Below are positions 35,273 through 40,822 of a stretch of DNA of 64,000 bases, one piece after another. The stretch covers positions 5,334 through 69,333 of the forward strand of contig CANQWY010000001.1 of NCBI GenBank assembly GCA_947627675.1, read 5' to 3'. The DNA comes from an uncultured Bacilli bacterium (GTDB taxonomy: Bacteria > Bacillota_I > Bacilli_A > RF39 > UBA660). The notes below the pieces were generated by a model that saw only the letters and a list, made by a program, of their open reading frames with translations, was not told the DNA's origin and searched no databases. The first letter of the stretch is position 1; each line of letters opens with the position of its first letter. Position numbers and translations under genes: made by a program.

Positions 35273-36199
35273 TTATAGATTTAAAAGAAAAATTTCAAGT
35301 GGTTTCTTCATATCATATATACCACTTTTTATTTTATAATCAATTTCTCCTATTTTTTTTATTAATTCATTAATTTCAGTATCAGATACTTTACTTAATA
35401 ATTCCATTGTCTTTTCTATTCTATATGGATGAATATCTAAAATAGTTGCAATATCGTTTTTTCTTTTGCTTTTTTTCATCAGTAAGCTTACTTGCTTTAA
35501 TAGCCTTAATTGGCTTTCTAGAAGGCTAATTACACCAATATCATCTATACTATCGCTAAGCTCTTGATAGGCTAATATTGCACTTTTCTTATTATTTGAT
35601 GAGATATATCTCACTAAATCAAATACTAAATTACTTTTATCATTAAGATGCTTAAAACATAGGCTTTTTATATCTTCAACTGTAATTTCGGTATCTATAT
35701 CTTTGTATTGCCTTAATTTGTCACATTCCGTTTTTATTGAATCGATATTACTATTTGTATATTCTATTAATAAATTAATTGCCTTTAAGGTAATATCATA
35801 TCCCTTAAGTTCTTCTTTAATGATATTTATTGGATTATCTTCTAATAAAGTATAGTTGCAATTTATTTTTAATTCTTTAGTAATTTTTTTTCTACTATCT
35901 AAATTATTTGATATCATTATCAATAATTTATTAGTATCCGGATTTTTTAAATATTTAAAAAAGTGTTTAGTTATTTCTTTATTAATATCTAATAATTCAA
36001 TGTTTTTAATTATAATTACCTTTTTTTCTGTTAAGAACGAATATGTATCAAGAGACTCTAAAATATCGTCTAATGAAGTTTCTTCTAATGTATATTCAAA
36101 TATTTCAGCCTTTTCAAAGCCAAGCTTTTTAATTAGTTCTTCCTTTCTTTTAATATAGGACAAGTTATTTTTATATTCAAATAAATAATTATATTCCAT
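35273..36199 (-). CDS. holA: DNA polymerase III delta subunit (HolA)-like
   Basis: 308 aa with an N-terminal clamp-loader delta fold signature (sensor arginine ...KKVIIIKNIELL). It sits directly downstream of alaS with an 11-nt overlap. Confidence 0.5.
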   Translation of the reverse strand: MEYNYLFEYKNNLSYIKRKEELIKKLGFEKAEIFEYTLEETSLDDILESLDTYSFLTEKKVIIIKNIELLDINKEITKHFFKYLKNPDTNKLLIMISNNLDSRKKITKELKINCNYTLLEDNPINIIKEELKGYDITLKAINLLIEYTNSNIDSIKTECDKLRQYKDIDTEITVEDIKSLCFKHLNDKSNLVFDLVRYISSNNKKSAILAYQELSDSIDDIGVISLLESQLRLLKQVSLLMKKSKRKNDIATILDIHPYRIEKTMELLSKVSDTEINELIKKIGEIDYKIKSGIYDMKKPLEIFLLNL

Positions 36200-38882
36200 T
36201 TTTTACTTCTTTCTCTATGTATTCCAAAATGTTATATAAATTATTTATATCTTTTCCCCCACCTTGAGCGAATGTTGGGCTTCCTCCCCCATTACCATCA
36301 GATTTTAAGGCCGCTTGTTTAATTAGATATGCTGCATTTAAATTACTATTACTTCTACATATATAATTTATAGAATTATCTGATTTTATATTTGCAAAGA
36401 AAACAATAGATAAATTTTCTTCATTAACAAGTTTATCAGCAATAGCTTTCAATAAATTATTTTCTATATTGCTTGTTTTCATAACTAAATATTGAATAGA
36501 ATTCTCAGTTTTAATATTTTTCTTATATTCATTTAAATTATTTAAAACATTTTTTTCTCGCAATTCCATATATTTTTTCTCTAACATTTTTACTTCATTT
36601 TGGACATAAGAAAGTTCATTTTGATTAAAAACAACATCTTTATAACTAGTTGGCTTAGAATTATCTATATTTATATCAAAGTCTAACGAAATACCAATTT
36701 TATTAGCTTCATCAATAATATTCTTGGCTTTTAATAAAAGTTTTATCATTTCATCATTGTATGGTTTTATTACCCCAAATAATGTTTGGTCAATTTTTGA
36801 ATTTGTAACCGCTTCTATTCTATACGTATCACTTCCTTTGGATTCGTATGAAAAGATTGCAAACTTTTTTATATTTTTTGTGTTAGTAGTATGAGTACCT
36901 CCACATAATTCTATAGATTTTCCCATTTTTACTACTCTAACAAGATCTTTATACTTCTCTGTAAATAATGCCATGGCACCCAATTTTTTAGCCTTATCAA
37001 GAGGCATTATTTCTGTAGAAACTATTAAACTTTTACTAATAAGGTCATTTACCTTATTTTCTACTTTTATTATATCTTCATCTGTTAATTTTGATGAATA
37101 AGTAAAGTCAAAACGTAATCTTTCACTATCAACATAACTTCCAGCTTGTCTTATTTCTTCGTTTACTACGGTTCGTAAAGCATAATGAAGTAAATGGACA
37201 CTACTATGATTCATTTCAGTCATTACTCTTTTTTCTTTATCTACAATAACCTCACATTCATCTCCTACAGATAATGATCCATCTAATAATTTAATTTTAT
37301 GAATATTTTGCCCATTAGGCCCTTTAAATACTTCTATTACTCTAGCTTTAAAATTTTTACCTATAATCATACCAGTATCACTAACTTGACCTCCTGATGT
37401 TGCATACAAACATGTTCTTTCTAGAGCAATATAGCCATCGTGATTTAATTTAGGTAATAAAGTATCTTTAGAAAATATTGCTAATATTTTTGTTTTTAAA
37501 CGGTATATTCCATATACAAATGTTGACTTATCTTTAAAATCTAGTAATACTTGTTTTTGGGTAGCCATTGATGACTTAGTACGAGATGATTTTCTTGCTA
37601 ACTCTTTTTGAGAATTCATATATTTATCAAATTCTTCTTTATTAGTAGTATAACCCATCTCATGCAAATACTCTAATGTAAGCTCAAAAGGAAAACCATA
37701 AGTATCATAAAGTTTGAAAGCATCTGCACCACTCAAAATTCCATCTGTTGATTTTTTTAGCATTTCTTTTAAAATCTTTTCTCCATCATTTAATGTTAAA
37801 AGAAATAATTTCTCTTCTTCTAAGATTTTTGTTTCAACATTAACTTGTTTTTCTCTTAAGTATGGATAAGCATCTTCCATAATTTTTACAACTGTCCCTA
37901 CTAATTTATATAAAAAGCAATCATTAATACCTAATTTTTTACCAGATCTAATACTTCTTCTAAGAAGTCTTCTTAAAACATATCCTCGACCAGAATTGGA
38001 AAAAGATGCTCCATCACTTAATGCAAATGTAAGAGCTCTTATGTGATCGGCTATTATTTTAAAATCTGTTTGATCGTGATATTTAATATTCGTAAGTTGT
38101 TCAATATGTTCTATAATTGGTAAAAATAAATCTGTCTCAAAAGTATTATCAACATCTTGAAATATTAAACACCATCTTTCAAGTCCTGCTCCAGTATCAA
38201 TATTTTTGTGAGGTAATTCTTTATAATTATCTCTACTTGTATTTTCAGTAGCGTTATATTGACTAAATACATTATTCCATATCTCGATATAACGTTCTTG
38301 TTCTTCATCATTTTTAAACTTTTCTAATGCAGTTTTATCTTTATCGTATTTTTCTCCTCTATCATAGAAAATTTCACTATCTGGCCCACAAGGACCGTTT
38401 CCAATTTCCCAAAAATTTTCTTCTAGTTTAATAATATGGTCTTCTAGCATTCCTACTTCTAACCATTTATTATAGGCCGTAGAGTCTTTAGGATATACAG
38501 TTACATATAATTTCTCTTTTTCGATTGCAAAAAAATCCTTGTTTGTTAGTAAATCCCAAGCAAATTCAATCGCTTCATTTTTAAAATAGTCGCCAATTGA
38601 AAAATTACCCATCATTTCAAAAAAAGTTTGATGTCTTTTAGTTATTCCTACATTTTCAATATCATTAGTTCTAATACATTTTTGGATATTTACAATCCTT
38701 TTAGATATGGGAATTTCTGTTCCATCAAAATATTTTTTTAGTGGAGCAACACCAGCATTTATCCATAATAAAGAATTATCATTTATGGGTATTAAAGATG
38801 CACTTTCTACTATTTTATGATTTTTACTAGAAAAATAGTTTAGCCACATATTTCTAATTTCCATATGAGTCATTTTTCTCAT
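36189..38882 (-). CDS. alaS: Alanine--tRNA ligase
   Basis: The class II AlaRS N-terminus MTHMEIRNMWLNYF, editing-domain HxxxH motifs (HSSVHLLHYAL; CGGTH) and a C-terminal DHH-like domain. The start is assigned to the ATG 1 nt after the upstream gene's TAA, with an AAGGAAG RBS. Confidence 0.9.
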   Translation of the reverse strand: MRKMTHMEIRNMWLNYFSSKNHKIVESASLIPINDNSLLWINAGVAPLKKYFDGTEIPISKRIVNIQKCIRTNDIENVGITKRHQTFFEMMGNFSIGDYFKNEAIEFAWDLLTNKDFFAIEKEKLYVTVYPKDSTAYNKWLEVGMLEDHIIKLEENFWEIGNGPCGPDSEIFYDRGEKYDKDKTALEKFKNDEEQERYIEIWNNVFSQYNATENTSRDNYKELPHKNIDTGAGLERWCLIFQDVDNTFETDLFLPIIEHIEQLTNIKYHDQTDFKIIADHIRALTFALSDGASFSNSGRGYVLRRLLRRSIRSGKKLGINDCFLYKLVGTVVKIMEDAYPYLREKQVNVETKILEEEKLFLLTLNDGEKILKEMLKKSTDGILSGADAFKLYDTYGFPFELTLEYLHEMGYTTNKEEFDKYMNSQKELARKSSRTKSSMATQKQVLLDFKDKSTFVYGIYRLKTKILAIFSKDTLLPKLNHDGYIALERTCLYATSGGQVSDTGMIIGKNFKARVIEVFKGPNGQNIHKIKLLDGSLSVGDECEVIVDKEKRVMTEMNHSSVHLLHYALRTVVNEEIRQAGSYVDSERLRFDFTYSSKLTDEDIIKVENKVNDLISKSLIVSTEIMPLDKAKKLGAMALFTEKYKDLVRVVKMGKSIELCGGTHTTNTKNIKKFAIFSYESKGSDTYRIEAVTNSKIDQTLFGVIKPYNDEMIKLLLKAKNIIDEANKIGISLDFDINIDNSKPTSYKDVVFNQNELSYVQNEVKMLEKKYMELREKNVLNNLNEYKKNIKTENSIQYLVMKTSNIENNLLKAIADKLVNEENLSIVFFANIKSDNSINYICRSNSNLNAAYLIKQAALKSDGNGGGSPTFAQGGGKDINNLYNILEYIEKEVKNGI

Positions 38883-38883
38883 T

Positions 38884-39438
38884 TTAGTCACTTCCTTTTT
38901 CAATTTTTGTTATTACATCTATTAATTGAATTTTATATTCATCTAGTCCTTTATTATTTAAAATATAAAAATCAGCATAGGCTATAGGGCCACCTTTAGC
39001 AGAATTTTCTATTTCTGAAATGTCCCGTTTTATGATATCATCTGTAGAAAATGGTCTATCTTTTCTACTAGCTATTCTCTTATAGCGAATATCTTTATCT
39101 GCTATAATTGAAATTAATTTTAATTGAGGAAATTTATCTTTTAATATTTTATATTCATCCCATGAATATAATCCATCTAATACTACATTATTATTTTTAT
39201 ATAGCTCCGCAATTTTATCTAAAAGAAGCATTGCTACTACACCCATTCCATATTTTTTTCTTAAATTTTCTCTAAATTCTTTTTGACTATCTGGAGTAAT
39301 TTCTATATTATTCTCATGCATTTTATCGTATATTACTCCACCAAAATAAACATTTTTGTATCCTTTTTCTTCAAAAAAATTGCAAGCTAAAGATTTACCA
39401 CTCCCAGCCATTCCTACAATAGCAATAATATTATTCAT
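38884..39438 (-). CDS. P-loop nucleotide kinase-like protein (dephospho-CoA/adenylate kinase-like fold), first gene of the alaS operon
   Basis: Walker A IAIVGMAGSGKS. 184 aa with an AGGAGGA RBS. Its stop abuts the alaS start. Confidence 0.55.
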   Translation of the reverse strand: MNNIIAIVGMAGSGKSLACNFFEEKGYKNVYFGGVIYDKMHENNIEITPDSQKEFRENLRKKYGMGVVAMLLLDKIAELYKNNNVVLDGLYSWDEYKILKDKFPQLKLISIIADKDIRYKRIASRKDRPFSTDDIIKRDISEIENSAKGGPIAYADFYILNNKGLDEYKIQLIDVITKIEKGSD

Positions 39439-39444
39439 AAAATC

Positions 39445-39640
39445 CTCCTTTTTATATACAAATAAAAGACCGTTTTAGGAGGACAAAAATGCCCGGTACC
39501 ATCCTAAATTTGGTCTTATTTATTATAACGGTTATTTACCGTAAAAACTCAAAAGTAGCTTTCCTAAAAATTATTAGCTTTCACCATTTACTAACTCTCT
39601 ATAGTTATTTTAGTACTTTTCTTTATCACAGTTTTTTAAA
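39445..39640 (-). promoter_or_regulatory. T-box riboswitch leader (Ala specifier) controlling the kinase-like gene plus alaS
   Basis: The minus-strand RNA contains AAUUUAGGAUGGUACCGGG, matching the T-box consensus AAUUAGGGUGGNACCGCG. The overlapping terminator hairpin AAGACCAAAUUUAGGA...UCCUAAAACGGUCUU is followed by UUUU. The upstream candidate specifier loop GAAAGCUAA has the GCU Ala codon followed by A, and there is an AGAGAG Stem-I-like element. Confidence 0.6.
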
Positions 39641-39646
39641 TATTAA

Positions 39647-40822
39647 TCATGCAAAATAATCCATTTTTAATTTGATTTTATCTAATATATTTAGCTTTTC
39701 ATTTATAAACGTAAAAATTATTTTCAATATAGCAACAAGTGGTGTTGCAAATATCATACCCATTATACCGAAAAAGTGTCCAAAAATCAAGAGACCTAAC
39801 ATAATAATAACAGGATGTAATTTCATTGTATGCCCCATAATAAGTGGTTGATAAAAATTATTTTCTAATGTTTGAACTATTAATATTGAAGCAATAGTAA
39901 AAATACCTGTAAGAGGAGATATTGTGAAGCCAACAATTATTGCAGGAATCGCTCCAATCCAAGGGCCAAAATATGGTATTATATCAGTTATAGCACAAAA
40001 TAATGCAAAAATTAGAGGTGCTTTTAATCCAGCTAAAGTTAATCCGATTGCTTGGCTTATAAAAACTAGTAACATTACAATTAATAGTCCTTGTACATAA
40101 CTTCTCAATGATGAATTTATTCTATTTGATAAATCTTTTAGTTCGTCATGATATTTTTTAGGAGTTAAATCATATATTCTTTTGGTAATTTTATGATAAT
40201 CAAATGCTAAGTAAAAACTTATCATAATTCCTAGTACTAAGGTAGTTATTACTGAAATTAAACTTTTTGTTCCCCCTATTAATGTTTCAGGGATACCACC
40301 AGATAAGCTATCACTAATATTTCCAATGGCTTTAAATATATTTTTCCTAATATTTTCAATAGATGAAATATCATTATTTTTAAATATATCATCGATAATT
40401 TCTTCTAATTGATCTAAAATATTAGGTAATGCAGCAATTAAATCTTTAATTTGACTAACTAAATTTGGAATAACTATAGATAATATTAAAAATATTACTC
40501 CAATGATTACTACATACATAATAATACAAGACAATATTCTAGGTATCTTTTTCTTAGTTAGTTTATCAATAGTAGGAGACAAAAACCATGCAATAATGAA
40601 ACCTATAAAAAGAGGAATTAAAACTTTAAAAATATCTCCAATAACATTAAATAAATGAAGCTTATTTAAAATATATATGCCTAAGCAAAACATTATAATT
40701 ATTACTAAATTGTTAAGTAAATATCCTAATTTTTTGTATTCATTTATACATCTATTTAAATTTTTAATATTTAATTTTTCATTCGTTTTATTTTCTTTCA
40801 TAAAATTCCCCTCGTCTTTCAT
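39647..40822 (-). CDS. AI-2E family transporter (PerM/UPF0118)
   Basis: 391 aa, 7-8 TM segments, and a charged N-terminus, matching AI-2E topology. Confidence 0.55.
   Translation of the reverse strand: MKDEGNFMKENKTNEKLNIKNLNRCINEYKKLGYLLNNLVIIIMFCLGIYILNKLHLFNVIGDIFKVLIPLFIGFIIAWFLSPTIDKLTKKKIPRILSCIIMYVVIIGVIFLILSIVIPNLVSQIKDLIAALPNILDQLEEIIDDIFKNNDISSIENIRKNIFKAIGNISDSLSGGIPETLIGGTKSLISVITTLVLGIMISFYLAFDYHKITKRIYDLTPKKYHDELKDLSNRINSSLRSYVQGLLIVMLLVFISQAIGLTLAGLKAPLIFALFCAITDIIPYFGPWIGAIPAIIVGFTISPLTGIFTIASILIVQTLENNFYQPLIMGHTMKLHPVIIMLGLLIFGHFFGIMGMIFATPLVAILKIIFTFINEKLNILDKIKLKMDYFA

What the first reader, a model, noticed from the sequence alone, without database searches (positions are those of the whole stretch)
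38884..39640. Ala-specifier T-box leader governing an operon in which a P-loop kinase-like gene precedes alaS
In the 208-nt region upstream (minus strand) of 38884-39438, the RNA carries the T-box sequence AAUUUAGGAUGGUACCGGG. This overlaps a terminator hairpin followed by UUUU. Further 5' lies the candidate specifier loop GAAAGCUAA, with the GCU alanine codon followed by A. T-box control of alaS is well established in Firmicutes. Here the first regulated gene is a 184-aa Walker-A protein (IAIVGMAGSGKS) whose stop codon lies 1 nt before the alaS ATG. That implies co-regulation of an unknown nucleotide kinase-like activity by uncharged tRNA-Ala.
Basis: partly seen in the sequence, partly recalled or inferred. 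Interest (0 to 1): 0.5.

Follow-up and report, generated by a model that had tools for sequence, protein, structure and literature searches.

The report
Alanine T-box leader before kinase-alaS operon
A real alanine-sensing T-box RNA switch sits in front of an operon of a small nucleotide kinase, alanyl-tRNA synthetase and a DNA polymerase subunit; the switch itself is a known kind, but it lacks a stem reported in all T-boxes, and the kinase sits where related genomes carry cytidylate kinase.

Summary
The T-box is real. Rfam RF00230 matches window 39638-39474 (minus strand) at 75.1 bits, E=1e-14 to 1e-16. It is the only RNA-family match in the 64 kb, but it falls below Rfam's gathering score of 93 because Stem II and Stem III are absent.

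The specifier is GCU (Ala) at 39559-39557.

The antiterminator is nested inside an invariant helix, AAGACC/GGUCUU, followed by a U-run. This is a terminator of unusual design. It recurs in 36 related alaS leaders and on thrS- and Ser-type T-boxes of the same uncultured gut Bacilli.

The operon is kinase, then alaS after a 1-nt gap, then holA with an 11-nt overlap.

The 184-aa protein is a UPF0200/AAA_18 NMP-kinase-fold protein. Its closest structure is Sulfolobus SSO1041, PDB 3LW7. In related contigs the same slot between the Ala T-box and alaS holds canonical cytidylate kinase. I therefore predict a (d)CMP-kinase analogue carried as an operon passenger.

Verdict: the finding is supported, with one wrong detail. 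It is a known kind of system with two features that deserve follow-up.

The parts
39474..39638 (-). T-box leader RNA (Rfam RF00230 match, full model span)
   Evidence: 75.1 bits, E=1.2e-16; only match with E<=0.01 in the whole window. Below the gathering score of 93 because the Stem II and Stem III model positions are deleted.
39547..39632 (-). Stem I, with the GA/K-turn motif (UGA...GAG), the specifier loop with S-turn (AGUA / GAA), the AGAGA bulge and the distal loop UGGUGAAAGC
   Evidence: alignment to the model; all 6 pairs of the distal helix covary and 98% of cells are paired. RNAalifold predicts the distal helix independently.
39556..39563 (-). 3' side of the specifier loop, GAA-A-GCU-A. 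The specifier codon GCU (Ala) is 39559-39557 and the conserved purine is at 39556.
   Evidence: alignment. GCU in 35 of 36 related leaders, GCA in L058. GCA in L140.
39574..39582 (-). It is part of the Stem I distal loop, not the specifier.
   Evidence: it aligns to the model's UGGUGaaAgc terminal loop.
39526..39542 (-). Hairpin ACGGU-AAAUA-ACCGU carrying the F-box CCGUUA (Stem IIA/B-type element). No Stem II precedes it.
   Evidence: model positions about 133-146; the CGG/CCG pairs are conserved, with some covariation.
39512..39517 (-). AAGACC, occupying the place of the Stem III 5' flank (RRRxG purine string). It is the 5' strand of the basal terminator helix. The invariant unpaired AA follows it.
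   Evidence: invariant A129 A130 G131 C133 C134 A136; 100% paired with GGUCUU in 36 sequences, with 3 G.U variants; alignment with L039, which retains Stem III.
39474..39508 (-). Antiterminator: A1 UUUAGGA/UCCUAAA, the 7-nt T-box bulge UGGUACC (39501-39495), A2 GGGC/GUCC and the loop AUUUUU
   Evidence: three of four A2 pairs and the lowest A1 pair covary. UGGU is complementary to ACCA of a tRNA with A73.
39459..39471 (-). GGUCUU, the 3' strand of the basal helix, followed by the U-run (GGUCUUUUAUUUG). Predicted intrinsic terminator.
   Evidence: GGTCTT.T invariant; 73% U in the 8 nt after GGUCUU across 36 leaders; the basal helix adds 7.3 kcal/mol and has pairing probability about 1.
39444..39449 (-). 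Shine-Dalgarno AGGAGG of the kinase gene. It is complementary to GUCCUCCU in the 3' strands of A2 and A1.
   Evidence: the sequestrator hairpin is -10.0 kcal/mol and the best structure containing it is -15.5, against -21.0 for the minimum free energy structure.
38884..39438 (-). 184-aa P-loop NMP-kinase-fold protein of the UPF0200 / AAA_18 family; predicted (d)CMP kinase analogue
   Evidence: Slot exchange with canonical cmk.
36189..38882 (-). alaS, alanyl-tRNA synthetase, 897 aa
   Evidence: tRNA-synt_2c at 1e-179, plus tRNA_SAD and DHHA1; the gene call starts at the same ATG.
35273..36199 (-). holA (DNA polymerase III delta subunit). It overlaps the end of alaS by 11 nt and is the last gene of the operon.
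   Evidence: the order alaS-holA is conserved (clusters 1 and 4).
39675..39702 (-). Candidate promoter ATGAAA-16-TAAAAT inside the 3' end of the upstream AI-2E transporter gene (weak)
   Evidence: 9 of 12 matches, at chance level for this AT-rich DNA; the same position recurs in about 12 of 36 relatives, but it lies in conserved coding sequence.

Best explanation
Window 39638-39459 (minus strand) encodes a tRNA-Ala-responsive T-box leader. It controls a three-gene operon of a UPF0200-like nucleotide kinase, alaS and holA, most likely by transcription attenuation.

Shown:
- Stem I carries a GCU specifier in the canonical S-turn context.
- The 7-nt bulge UGGUACC can pair with the ACCA end of a tRNA with A73.
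- Helices A1 and A2 covary.
- The three genes are packed without room for separate signals.

The leader is a reduced variant. It has no Stem II and no Stem III hairpin. Only the Stem III flanks survive, as AAGAC-C-AA.

Inferred mechanism: the invariant AAGACC pairs with the invariant GGUCUU just 3' of the antiterminator. This extends A1 into a long hairpin that ends in a U-run, which is the OFF (terminator) state. When uncharged tRNA-Ala is clamped by Stem I and the bulge, I propose that the AAG...AA purine string docks on the tRNA/bulge duplex, as it does in canonical discriminators. That would keep the basal helix open so that RNA polymerase reads through.

Inference from gene context: the kinase is an active-looking NMP kinase. 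Related contigs carry canonical cytidylate kinase in exactly this slot, so it most likely is a (d)CMP kinase analogue. It would then be co-regulated with alaS as an operon passenger and would not be part of alanine metabolism.
For: T-box identity:
- E=1e-16 and 1e-14, full-length model match, sole hit in the window.
- 85.5% of cells paired against 76.5% in shuffles (0 of 500 shuffles reach it) and 35-57% with slid partners; 146 cells changed on both sides against 49 expected.
- RNAalifold independently predicts the distal Stem I helix, the F-box hairpin, the basal helix, A1 and A2.

Ala specificity:
- GCU lies before a purine and the closing helix.
- The specifier is GCU in 35 of 36 leaders and the synonymous GCA in one.
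- This matches the B. subtilis and C. acetobutylicum alaS T-boxes, which have a GCU specifier and a bulge U opposite A73 (PMC4695836).

Operon:
- 1-nt and overlapping junctions.
- No terminator-like sites, and 8 promoter-like sites against 11.7 expected.
- Conserved order AI-2E gene, T-box, (DNMK), kinase, alaS, holA.

Terminator:
- AAGACC and GGUCUU.U are invariant.
- The U-run is 73% U.
- Sister leaders carry unambiguous hairpin-plus-U-run terminators whose 3' strand also captures a 5' element of the discriminator (L031, L066, L070, L052, L057).
- The same platform occurs on thrS (ACU) and Ser (UCU) leaders.

Stem III loss:
- Comparison with L039, which keeps Stem III between AAGUG and AA.
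- The purine-string role comes from PMC7583486.

Kinase:
- AAA_18 at 2.8e-12.
- 3LW7/3H0K at E=1e-15, and 2e-20 with a profile.
- AlphaFold model with pLDDT 88; Foldseek top hit 3LW7 with TM 0.83-0.89, followed by adenylate, dephospho-CoA and UMP/CMP kinases.
- Invariant P-loop, LDG motif and Arg cluster.
- Kinase domain of the dCTP-deaminase defence protein at 6e-13; archaeal (d)CMP kinase model at 1.8e-5.
- The kinase gene overlaps a dCMP deaminase gene by 4 nt in L071.
- Slot occupancy between the Ala T-box and alaS: DNMK plus this kinase; DNMK plus Cmk (L109, L120, L152); Cmk alone (L099); this kinase alone (window and others).
- Pfam Cytidylate_kin scores 3e-74 and 4e-72 for the proteins in that slot in L099 and L152.
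- Cmk-bearing loci nest among kinase-bearing loci at four places in an AlaRS tree.
Against: - The match is below Rfam's curated threshold.
- The predicted terminator and antiterminator are nested, not mutually exclusive, so the canonical strand-swap switch does not apply. My docking-versus-pairing model is untested.
- The basal helix never shows a compensatory change, so pairing is inferred from invariance and complementarity only.
- No tRNA-Ala gene was available to check the anticodon and position 73.
- The promoter is not identified. The leader starts 9 nt after the stop codon of the upstream gene.
- For the kinase there is no biochemical evidence. The closest solved structure was crystallised with AMP and is named adenylate-kinase-related.
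- I could not test whether genomes with this kinase lack cmk elsewhere.
- The AlaRS tree is a rough neighbour-joining tree on 200 residues.
Confidence: 0.72

Rival explanations
1. The T-box acts on translation, alone or in addition to termination. Without uncharged tRNA, the 3' strands of A2 and A1 (GUCCUCCU) pair with the Shine-Dalgarno sequence (AGGAGGAU). The AAGACC/GGUCUU helix would then be a long-range substitute for Stem III that belongs to the ON state.
For: - There is 8-bp complementarity between the anti-SD-like strand and the SD.
- The sequestrator hairpin is -10.0 kcal/mol, and the best structure containing it is -15.5 against -21.0 for the minimum free energy structure.
- All leaders of this lineage have AGGAUGG rather than AGGGUGG, which makes the A1 3' strand a CUCCU anti-SD.
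- No other partner exists for the 3' strands of A1 and A2.
- Translational T-boxes are established in Actinobacteria (PMC7583486).
Against: - The long hairpin is predicted to be more stable than any sequestrator-containing fold even without tRNA.
- The U-run directly after GGUC is conserved (invariant or at least 90% T at four positions). A translational model does not explain this.
- Sister leaders have clear hairpin-plus-U-run terminators.
- SD/anti-SD complementarity is expected from any GGAGG SD paired against a UCCU A1 strand, so it is not specific evidence.
Confidence: 0.18
2. The kinase is functionally tied to aminoacyl-tRNA synthesis, for example by acting on a tRNA, on an aaRS or on a product of aminoacylation, and is not a passenger nucleotide kinase.
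For: - It sits in two different T-box-controlled aaRS operons. One is Ala T-box, kinase, alaS. The other is an Asp/Asn T-box (GAC or AAC specifier, UGGC bulge), hisS, two class IIb aaRS genes, kinase, gatCAB, with 5-20 nt gaps.
- The linkage to alaS persists in loci without a T-box.
Against: - In Saccharibacteria and Clostridia the gene lies next to polA, ndk, a dCMP deaminase gene or unrelated genes.
- The alaS operon also carries holA and, in relatives, a GNAT and a dNMP kinase, so unrelated housekeeping genes share these operons.
- Canonical Cmk occupies the same slot.
- The fold and motifs are those of small-molecule NMP kinases.
Confidence: 0.08
3. The kinase is an adenylate kinase-like or dephospho-CoA kinase-like enzyme and not a cytidylate kinase analogue.
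For: - The closest structure, 3LW7, is annotated adenylate kinase-related and was solved with AMP.
- The next Foldseek hits are adenylate and dephospho-CoA kinases.
- One database source names a homologue dephospho-CoA kinase (P0074).
- Adjacency to polA in Saccharibacteria resembles the polA-coaE neighbourhood of other bacteria (own knowledge).
- There is a weak CoaE P-loop match.
Against: - The CoaE and adenylate kinase models score far below their cut-offs: 17 against 27 bits, and 15 against 223 bits.
- The CoaE match covers only the P-loop region (residues 4-30).
- Context points to cytidine nucleotides: Cmk in the same slot, dCMP deaminase overlap, and similarity to the kinase domain of dCTP deaminases.
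Confidence: 0.17
4. The leader is a decaying or inactive T-box, and the operon is expressed constitutively by readthrough from the upstream AI-2E transporter gene or from an unrecognised promoter.
For: - The score is below the Rfam gathering threshold.
- Stem II and Stem III are missing.
- The leader starts 9 nt after the upstream stop codon and there is no convincing promoter.
- Some relatives have lost the T-box altogether.
Against: - Thirty-six diverged leaders keep all functional motifs invariant: AGAGA, GGUG.AA, the GCU specifier, CCGUUA, UGGUACC, AAGACC, GGUCUU.
- Base pairs are kept through compensatory changes.
- The same platform serves the thrS- and Ser-type leaders.
Confidence: 0.05

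Closest known systems
alaS T-box leaders of Clostridium acetobutylicum and Bacillus subtilis (PMC4695836)
   Same: They sit upstream of alaS, carry a GCU specifier, have U at the variable bulge position opposite A73, and use a Stem I, antiterminator and terminator with U-run. The C. acetobutylicum leader is likewise a deletion variant without Stem II.
   Different: The C. acetobutylicum leader lacks IIA/B but keeps Stem III and a canonical terminator. This leader keeps an F-box hairpin and lacks Stem III. Its terminator 3' strand pairs with the sequence 5' of the antiterminator, not with the A1/A2 3' strands. The first regulated gene is a kinase, not alaS.
glyQS-type reduced T-boxes (Stem I, linker, Stem III, antiterminator)
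   Same: A natural minimal architecture without Stem II that acts by transcription attenuation.
   Different: glyQS leaders retain Stem III with its RRRxG...AA purine flanks, which is described as indispensable and universal (PMC7583486, PMC11404447). Here only the flanks remain.
Actinobacterial translational ileS T-boxes
   Same: The 3' strands of the discriminator are complementary to the Shine-Dalgarno sequence.
   Different: Those leaders lack a terminator U-run and have Stem II, IIA/B and Stem III. Here a conserved hairpin plus U-run precedes the SD.
UPF0200 protein SSO1041 of Sulfolobus solfataricus (PDB 3H0K, 3LW7, 'AdkA-like')
   Same: About 29-30% identity over the full length, E=1e-15 to 2e-20, TM 0.83-0.89, same size and same NMP-kinase fold.
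   Different: It is archaeal. I found no functional study. Its genomic context is not known to me.
Cytidylate kinase Cmk (Pfam PF02224)
   Same: P-loop NMP kinase of similar size. It occupies exactly the same position between the Ala T-box (or the DNMK gene) and alaS in related contigs.
   Different: The window protein does not match PF02224. It matches only the archaeal (d)CMP kinase model, weakly (24.8 against a cut-off of 102 bits). It is a different family.
Kinase domain of anti-phage dCTP deaminases (PADLOC dCTPase, NCBIfam NF041025)
   Same: Sequence similarity over most of the kinase, at 5.8e-13 and 5e-6.
   Different: The window protein is stand-alone, with no deaminase domain, and sits in a housekeeping operon. 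No other match to a PADLOC defence-system model had E below 0.004.

Membership tests
T-box leader (Rfam RF00230) | Covariance-model score at or above the curated gathering score | tested here: not met
   75.1 bits against 93. E=1e-14 to 1e-16 is nevertheless highly significant. The deficit comes from the deleted Stem II and Stem III positions.
T-box leader (Rfam RF00230) | Stem I with a GA/K-turn motif, a specifier loop with S-turn (AGUA/GAA), a codon followed by a purine, an AG bulge and a distal loop | tested here: met
   alignment: UGA...GAG, AAAAGUA, GAA-A-GCU-A, AGAGAG, UGGUGAAAGC. Covariation.
T-box leader (Rfam RF00230) | T-box sequence forming A1, the 7-nt bulge UGGNACC and A2 | tested here: met
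   AGGA-UGGUACC-GGGC...GUCC-UCCU. A2 and the lowest A1 pair covary. The terminal A2 pair is G-C rather than G.U, a substitution reported in other T-boxes (PMC11404447).
T-box leader (Rfam RF00230) | Stem III hairpin flanked by the 5'-RRRxG ... AA-3' purine string | tested here: not met
   The model's 19 hidden Stem III positions are replaced by 2 nt. Only AAGAC-C-AA remains. The relative L039 has AAGUG-[UGCUAAAAGCA]-AA at this point.
T-box leader (Rfam RF00230) | Terminator (or sequestrator) mutually exclusive with the antiterminator through shared A1/A2 3' strands | tested here: not met
   The only hairpin followed by a U-run encloses the antiterminator. The A1/A2 3' strands have no downstream partner except the SD.
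T-box leader (Rfam RF00230) | Specifier and bulge match the cognate tRNA of the regulated aaRS | tested here: inconclusive
   GCU matches alaS downstream, and UGGU fits A73 as in known alaS T-boxes. No tRNA-Ala gene is present in the window or in 60 of the related loci.
T-box leader (Rfam RF00230) | tRNA-dependent antitermination | not testable with these tools
   This needs in vitro transcription or reporter assays.
UPF0200 / Pfam AAA_18 NMP-kinase-like proteins | Sequence match above the family threshold and full-length similarity to SSO1041 | tested here: met
   AAA_18 at 47.6 bits against a cut-off of 29.4. 3LW7/3H0K at E=1e-15, residues 4-178. NCBIfam PRK08356 is matched only weakly, 45 against 189 bits.
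UPF0200 / Pfam AAA_18 NMP-kinase-like proteins | P-loop NMP-kinase fold with a LID Arg cluster | tested here: met
   Model with pLDDT 88 and TM 0.83-0.89 to 3LW7. Invariant G9-x-x-G12-x-G14-K15-S16, D88, R118, R121, R125, R128 and R138.
Cytidylate kinase (Pfam PF02224 / TIGR02173) | Match to a Cmk model above its cut-off | tested here: not met
   No PF02224 match. TIGR02173 scores 24.8 against a cut-off of 102.1 bits. The claim is functional analogy from gene context, not membership.
Cytidylate kinase (Pfam PF02224 / TIGR02173) | CMP/dCMP phosphorylation | not testable with these tools
   Needs an enzyme assay or complementation of a cmk mutant.
Dephospho-CoA kinase CoaE (Pfam PF01121) | Match above the cut-off | tested here: not met
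   17.3 against 27 bits, covering the P-loop only (residues 4-30). TIGR00152 scores 16.7 against 65.6 bits.

The most novel reading that the evidence does not exclude
The leader belongs to an undescribed class of T-box riboswitches, found on alaS, thrS and Ser-type leaders of uncultured gut Bacilli, that has lost the Stem III hairpin. In this class helices A1 and A2 would be common to the ON and OFF states. The decision would be made by competition for the conserved purine string AAG(AC)C-AA. Either the string latches onto the tRNA/bulge duplex and the gene is read through, or it is captured by the invariant GGUCUU to complete a terminator. In addition, the co-regulated UPF0200-type kinase would be a non-orthologous replacement of cytidylate kinase. 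That would assign a function to a widespread family that has solved structures but no known activity.
Probability: 0.3. Interest if true: 0.7.

Novelty: new variant of a known kind. Interest (0 to 1): 0.5.

Why it matters
T-box control of alaS is textbook, so the core of the finding is ordinary. Three points go beyond it.

1. Default Rfam annotation misses this leader and the four Asp/Asn-type leaders scanned in related loci. They score 75-82 bits against a threshold of 93. T-box regulons of these abundant, uncultured gut Bacilli are therefore probably under-annotated.

2. The leader lacks the Stem III hairpin, which current reviews call indispensable and universal. Its terminator encloses the antiterminator and does not compete for the antiterminator's 3' strands. 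If it is functional, it constrains models of how the discriminator senses the tRNA 3' end, and it offers a naturally minimised T-box for structural work.

3. The same slot holds either canonical cmk or this kinase at four separate places in the AlaRS tree. That gives a concrete, cheaply testable function, (d)CMP kinase, for the UPF0200/AAA_18 family. The family has more than 4,800 clusters in the protein collection, archaeal members and two PDB entries of unknown function.

Tried and rejected
- **Rfam at the gathering threshold.** No hit in the window. The permissive scan was needed.
- **Consensus terminator scan.** It found nothing because its loop limit of 3-8 nt excludes a hairpin that encloses the antiterminator.
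- **Canonical terminator using the A1/A2 3' strands.** I looked by eye and by constrained folding. None exists. Only the SD is complementary to those strands.
- **GGUACCG pairing with CGGUC as the terminator.** Rejected: 4 bp only, and not conserved in relatives.
- **A cis 'ACCA' tRNA-end mimic (GACCA) pairing with the bulge.** Rejected: L001 and L011 have ACCG and ACCU, and the segment covaries as an extension of A1.
- **tRNA-Ala gene.** None in the window or in 60 loci.
- **Paralogy of the two kinases.** BLASTP shows no similarity.
- **A DNMK or cmk homologue elsewhere in the window.** None found.
- **A second T-box in the 160-nt kinase-alaS spacer of L001.** Only three short hairpins are present.
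- **Literature on UPF0200, SSO1041 and 3LW7.** No functional study found.
- **Foldseek against AFDB50.** The library was unavailable.
- **Promoter.** Only chance-level matches.
Full report
**1. What is in the sequence**

On the minus strand the gene order is as follows.
- An AI-2E-family transporter gene (40822-39647).
- A 208-nt spacer (39646-39439).
- A 184-aa P-loop ORF (39438-38884).
- alaS, from ATG 38882 to 36189, 897 aa, with the tRNA-synt_2c, tRNA_SAD and DHHA1 domains.
- holA (36199-35273), which overlaps the end of alaS by 11 nt.

The next gene is convergent. The kinase stop codon TAA (38886-38884) is separated from the alaS ATG by one base. Gene calls on three identical metagenomic contigs use the same starts.

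**2. The T-box is real but scores below threshold**

A default Rfam scan of the window finds nothing. With E-value reporting, RF00230 matches 39638-39474 over the full model at 75.1 bits. E is 1.2e-16 locally and 1.9e-14 for the whole window, where it is the only match with E<=0.01. The gathering score is 93.

The alignment shows why the score is low. Stem I, the F-box hairpin and the T-box/antiterminator align well. The Stem II positions and the 19 Stem III positions are deleted.

Stem I has all the hallmark motifs:
- UGA...GAG at its base;
- AGUA opposite GAA in the specifier loop;
- the AGAGAG bulge;
- the distal loop UGGUGAAAGC.

**3. The specifier**

The 3' side of the specifier loop is GAA-A-GCU-A (39563-39556), followed directly by the closing helix CUUU. 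The codon is therefore GCU (Ala) with the conserved 3' purine.

That string lies at 39582-39574 and is the distal loop. Both sites happen to contain GAAAGCUA, so the codon assignment survives.

In 36 aligned relatives the specifier is GCU 35 times and GCA once (L058). A metagenomic relative (L140) also has GCA. The bulge UGGU fits a tRNA with A73. Both features match the experimentally studied alaS T-boxes of B. subtilis and C. acetobutylicum (PMC4695836). No tRNA-Ala gene was available for a direct check.

**4. Relatives and covariation**

I scanned one genome per species with a profile of the kinase. This returned 80 loci, mostly uncultured gut Bacilli or 'Tenericutes' MAGs, plus Saccharibacteria and Clostridia.
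- The kinase is immediately followed by alaS in about 58 of them.
- A T-box core motif (AGGATGGTA[AC]C) lies upstream of the cluster in 43.

I aligned 36 leaders that share the window's architecture. On the structure read from the Rfam alignment:
- 85.5% of cells are paired, against 76.5% in shuffles (0 of 500 shuffles reach the observed value) and 35-57% when partners are slid by 1-3 columns;
- 146 cells changed on both sides, against 49 expected.

The distal Stem I helix, A2 and the lowest A1 pair covary strongly. RNAalifold recovers the same helices unaided. Seven related kinase-alaS loci scanned with Rfam have no T-box upstream of the cluster, so the gene linkage does not depend on the T-box.

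**5. An unusual expression platform**

Between the F-box (CCGUUA) and the T-box sequence the window reads UAAUAAAUAAGACCAAAUU. There is no Stem III hairpin.

The relative L039 reads ...AAUUAAGUG-[UGCUAAAAGCA]-AAUUAGGAUGG, that is, the canonical 5'-RRRxG-Stem III-AA-3'. The window type reads AAUUAAGAC-C-AA. Only the purine flanks survive.

Reviews state that Stem III and its purine string are indispensable for binding the tRNA 3' end (PMC7583486). [quoted passage not shown]

In all 36 leaders AAGACC is invariant apart from three A-to-G changes, which still pair as G.U. It is complementary to an equally invariant GGUCUU placed just after the A1 3' strand and followed by a U-run: the consensus is GGUCUUUUAUUUGU, with 73% U in the next 8 nt. 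The two A residues after GACC are invariant and unpaired. The segment between them and AGGA covaries with the 3' side as an extension of A1.

The predicted OFF structure is therefore one long hairpin made of the basal helix, A1, the 7-nt bulge and A2, ending in a U-run. Its energy is -16.8 kcal/mol, against -9.5 for A1 plus A2 alone, and the pairing probability of the basal helix is about 1. The antiterminator is nested in the terminator and does not compete with it.

Sister leaders of the same gene family have unambiguous hairpin-plus-U-run terminators. Their 3' strand captures other 5' elements of the discriminator:
- GGAUGGUACC in L031, L066 and L070;
- ACC plus the A2 5' strand in L052 and L057.

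By analogy, I propose that the 3' strand in the window type captures the purine string. When uncharged tRNA is bound, the string would dock on the tRNA/bulge duplex, as in canonical discriminators, and the basal helix would stay open. This step is inference and has not been shown.

The alternative is SD sequestration by GUCCUCCU (-10 kcal/mol; best structure containing it -15.5 against -21.0 for the minimum free energy structure). It cannot be excluded, but it leaves the conserved U-run unexplained.

A metagenome scan for TAAGACC...GGATGGNACC is expected to return many chance matches. I kept only matches that also had the F-box and GGTCTT. That left 35 T-boxes with this platform. They include leaders with an ACU (Thr) specifier, whose downstream product shows the weak tRNA_SAD-domain similarity expected of ThrRS, and leaders with a UCU (Ser) specifier, whose downstream genes I did not identify. 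The Thr- and Ser-type leaders do have Stem II. The platform is therefore a lineage-wide design and not an accident of one leader.

**6. Promoter**

The leader begins 9 nt after the stop codon of the upstream gene. The best sigma-70-like match (ATGAAA-16-TAAAAT, 39702-39675) lies inside that gene and is at chance level. Either readthrough from upstream or an embedded promoter is possible.

**7. The kinase**

Sequence and structure:
- Pfam AAA_18 at 2.8e-12.
- Best solved relative: Sulfolobus SSO1041 (UPF0200; 3H0K, 3LW7), E=1e-15, or 2e-20 with a profile.
- The AlphaFold model (pLDDT 88) superposes on 3LW7 with TM 0.83-0.89. Next come adenylate, dephospho-CoA and UMP/CMP kinases.
- The P-loop, an LDG motif and a cluster of LID arginines are invariant, so the protein looks catalytically competent.
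- Weaker matches point to pyrimidine nucleotides: the kinase domain of anti-phage dCTP deaminases (5.8e-13), phage dNMP kinases (1e-8) and archaeal (d)CMP kinase (1.8e-5).
- I found no functional literature.

Gene context:
- Most relatives carry an additional T4 gp1-like dNMP kinase gene (Pfam DNMK; phrog_139 at 1e-23) between the T-box and this kinase. The window lacks it.
- The position directly upstream of alaS holds this kinase in 77 of the 86 loci classified (55 with and 22 without the DNMK gene) and canonical cytidylate kinase in 6. The latter are DNMK plus Cmk in L109, L120, L152 and L184, and Cmk alone in L099 plus one further locus (L157 is a partial cmk-first contig). Pfam Cytidylate_kin scores 3e-74 and 4e-72 for the L099 and L152 proteins.
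- In a rough AlaRS tree the Cmk loci nest among kinase loci at four places. For example, L099 is sister to L059, and their leaders are nearly identical.
- In L071 the kinase gene overlaps a dCMP deaminase gene by 4 nt. In L076 it precedes ndk.

I therefore predict a (d)CMP kinase analogue. This is an inference from context, and the protein is not a member of the Cmk family.

A second context is a different T-box operon: an Asp/Asn T-box, hisS, two class IIb aaRS genes, the kinase, then gatCAB. This shows a tendency to sit in aaRS operons. In Saccharibacteria, however, the neighbours are dnaG, rpoD and polA. The alaS operon itself carries holA and, in some relatives, a GNAT. 'Housekeeping passenger' is therefore the simpler reading.

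**8. Verdict**

The system is a known kind (T-box-controlled alaS) in a new variant: it has no Stem III, it has a nested terminator, and kinase genes are inserted between the leader and alaS.

Limits:
- No experiment was done and the tRNA was not examined.
- The genome loci were selected through the kinase, and the metagenome loci through the platform motif. The frequencies given are conditional on those choices.

Noticed in passing
L002, L013, L020, L028, L029, L037, L041, L042, L044, L047, L048, L051, L052, L057 (e.g. L029:5536-7308): In these relatives the alaS gene after the kinase encodes a short AlaRS of 579-590 aa. In the one scanned with Pfam (L029) it has the catalytic and tRNA_SAD domains but no C-terminal DHHA1 (C-Ala) domain. 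These proteins are only 37-41% identical to the window's AlaRS. In some loci alaS is followed by yrzL and ruvX, as in Bacillus.
   Followed up: partly
L017, L023, L032, L046 (T-box at about 820-1020); also L043, L050, L054: The same kinase family sits inside a second T-box operon: T-box, hisS, two class IIb aaRS genes, kinase, gatC, gatA, gatB, with 5-20 nt gaps. The specifier is GAC (Asp) in L046 and AAC (Asn) in L032, and the bulge is UGGC. These T-boxes keep Stem III and also score below the Rfam gathering threshold (78-82 bits).
   Followed up: partly
L086, L092, L102, L107, L117, L118, L121, L122, L132, L138, L147 (ACU leaders); L129, L155, L163 (UCU leaders): T-box leaders with Thr (ACU) or Ser (UCU) specifiers use the same AAGACC...GGUCUUUUUUU platform without Stem III, and they retain Stem II. 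Downstream of seven of the ACU leaders the product shows weak similarity to the tRNA_SAD domain, consistent with thrS. The genes after the UCU leaders were not identified.
   Followed up: partly
L098:5847-6323 (-) and L143: A GNAT acetyltransferase gene is the first gene after the Ala T-box, followed by the DNMK-like kinase gene and alaS. This is another unrelated passenger in the same operon slot.
   Followed up: partly
L001:4717-4879: The 160-nt spacer between the kinase gene and alaS holds three short perfect hairpins (TTGCCACCGACAGTGGCAA, TTGTGCAACATCTTGTTGCACAA, TGCAGACGTCGTCTGCA) without U-runs. They look like small repeat or processing elements. L012 and L014 have spacers of similar length.
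   Followed up: no
L071:4465-5540: In a 1.49-Mb MAG chromosome (OZ246407.1) the kinase gene overlaps a dCMP deaminase gene by 4 nt. This mirrors the deaminase-kinase fusion of anti-phage dCTP deaminases.
   Followed up: partly
window 1-64000: ARAGORN found no tRNA or tmRNA gene, and the T-box was the only Rfam match with E<=0.01 in 64 kb. The AI-2E transporter gene ends 9 nt before the T-box begins, so the leader has no obvious promoter of its own.
   Followed up: partly
L020:8041-8142: A weak, short T-box-like match (43 bits, E=3.6e-06) lies downstream of the kinase/short-alaS pair in a locus that has no T-box upstream of it.
   Followed up: no
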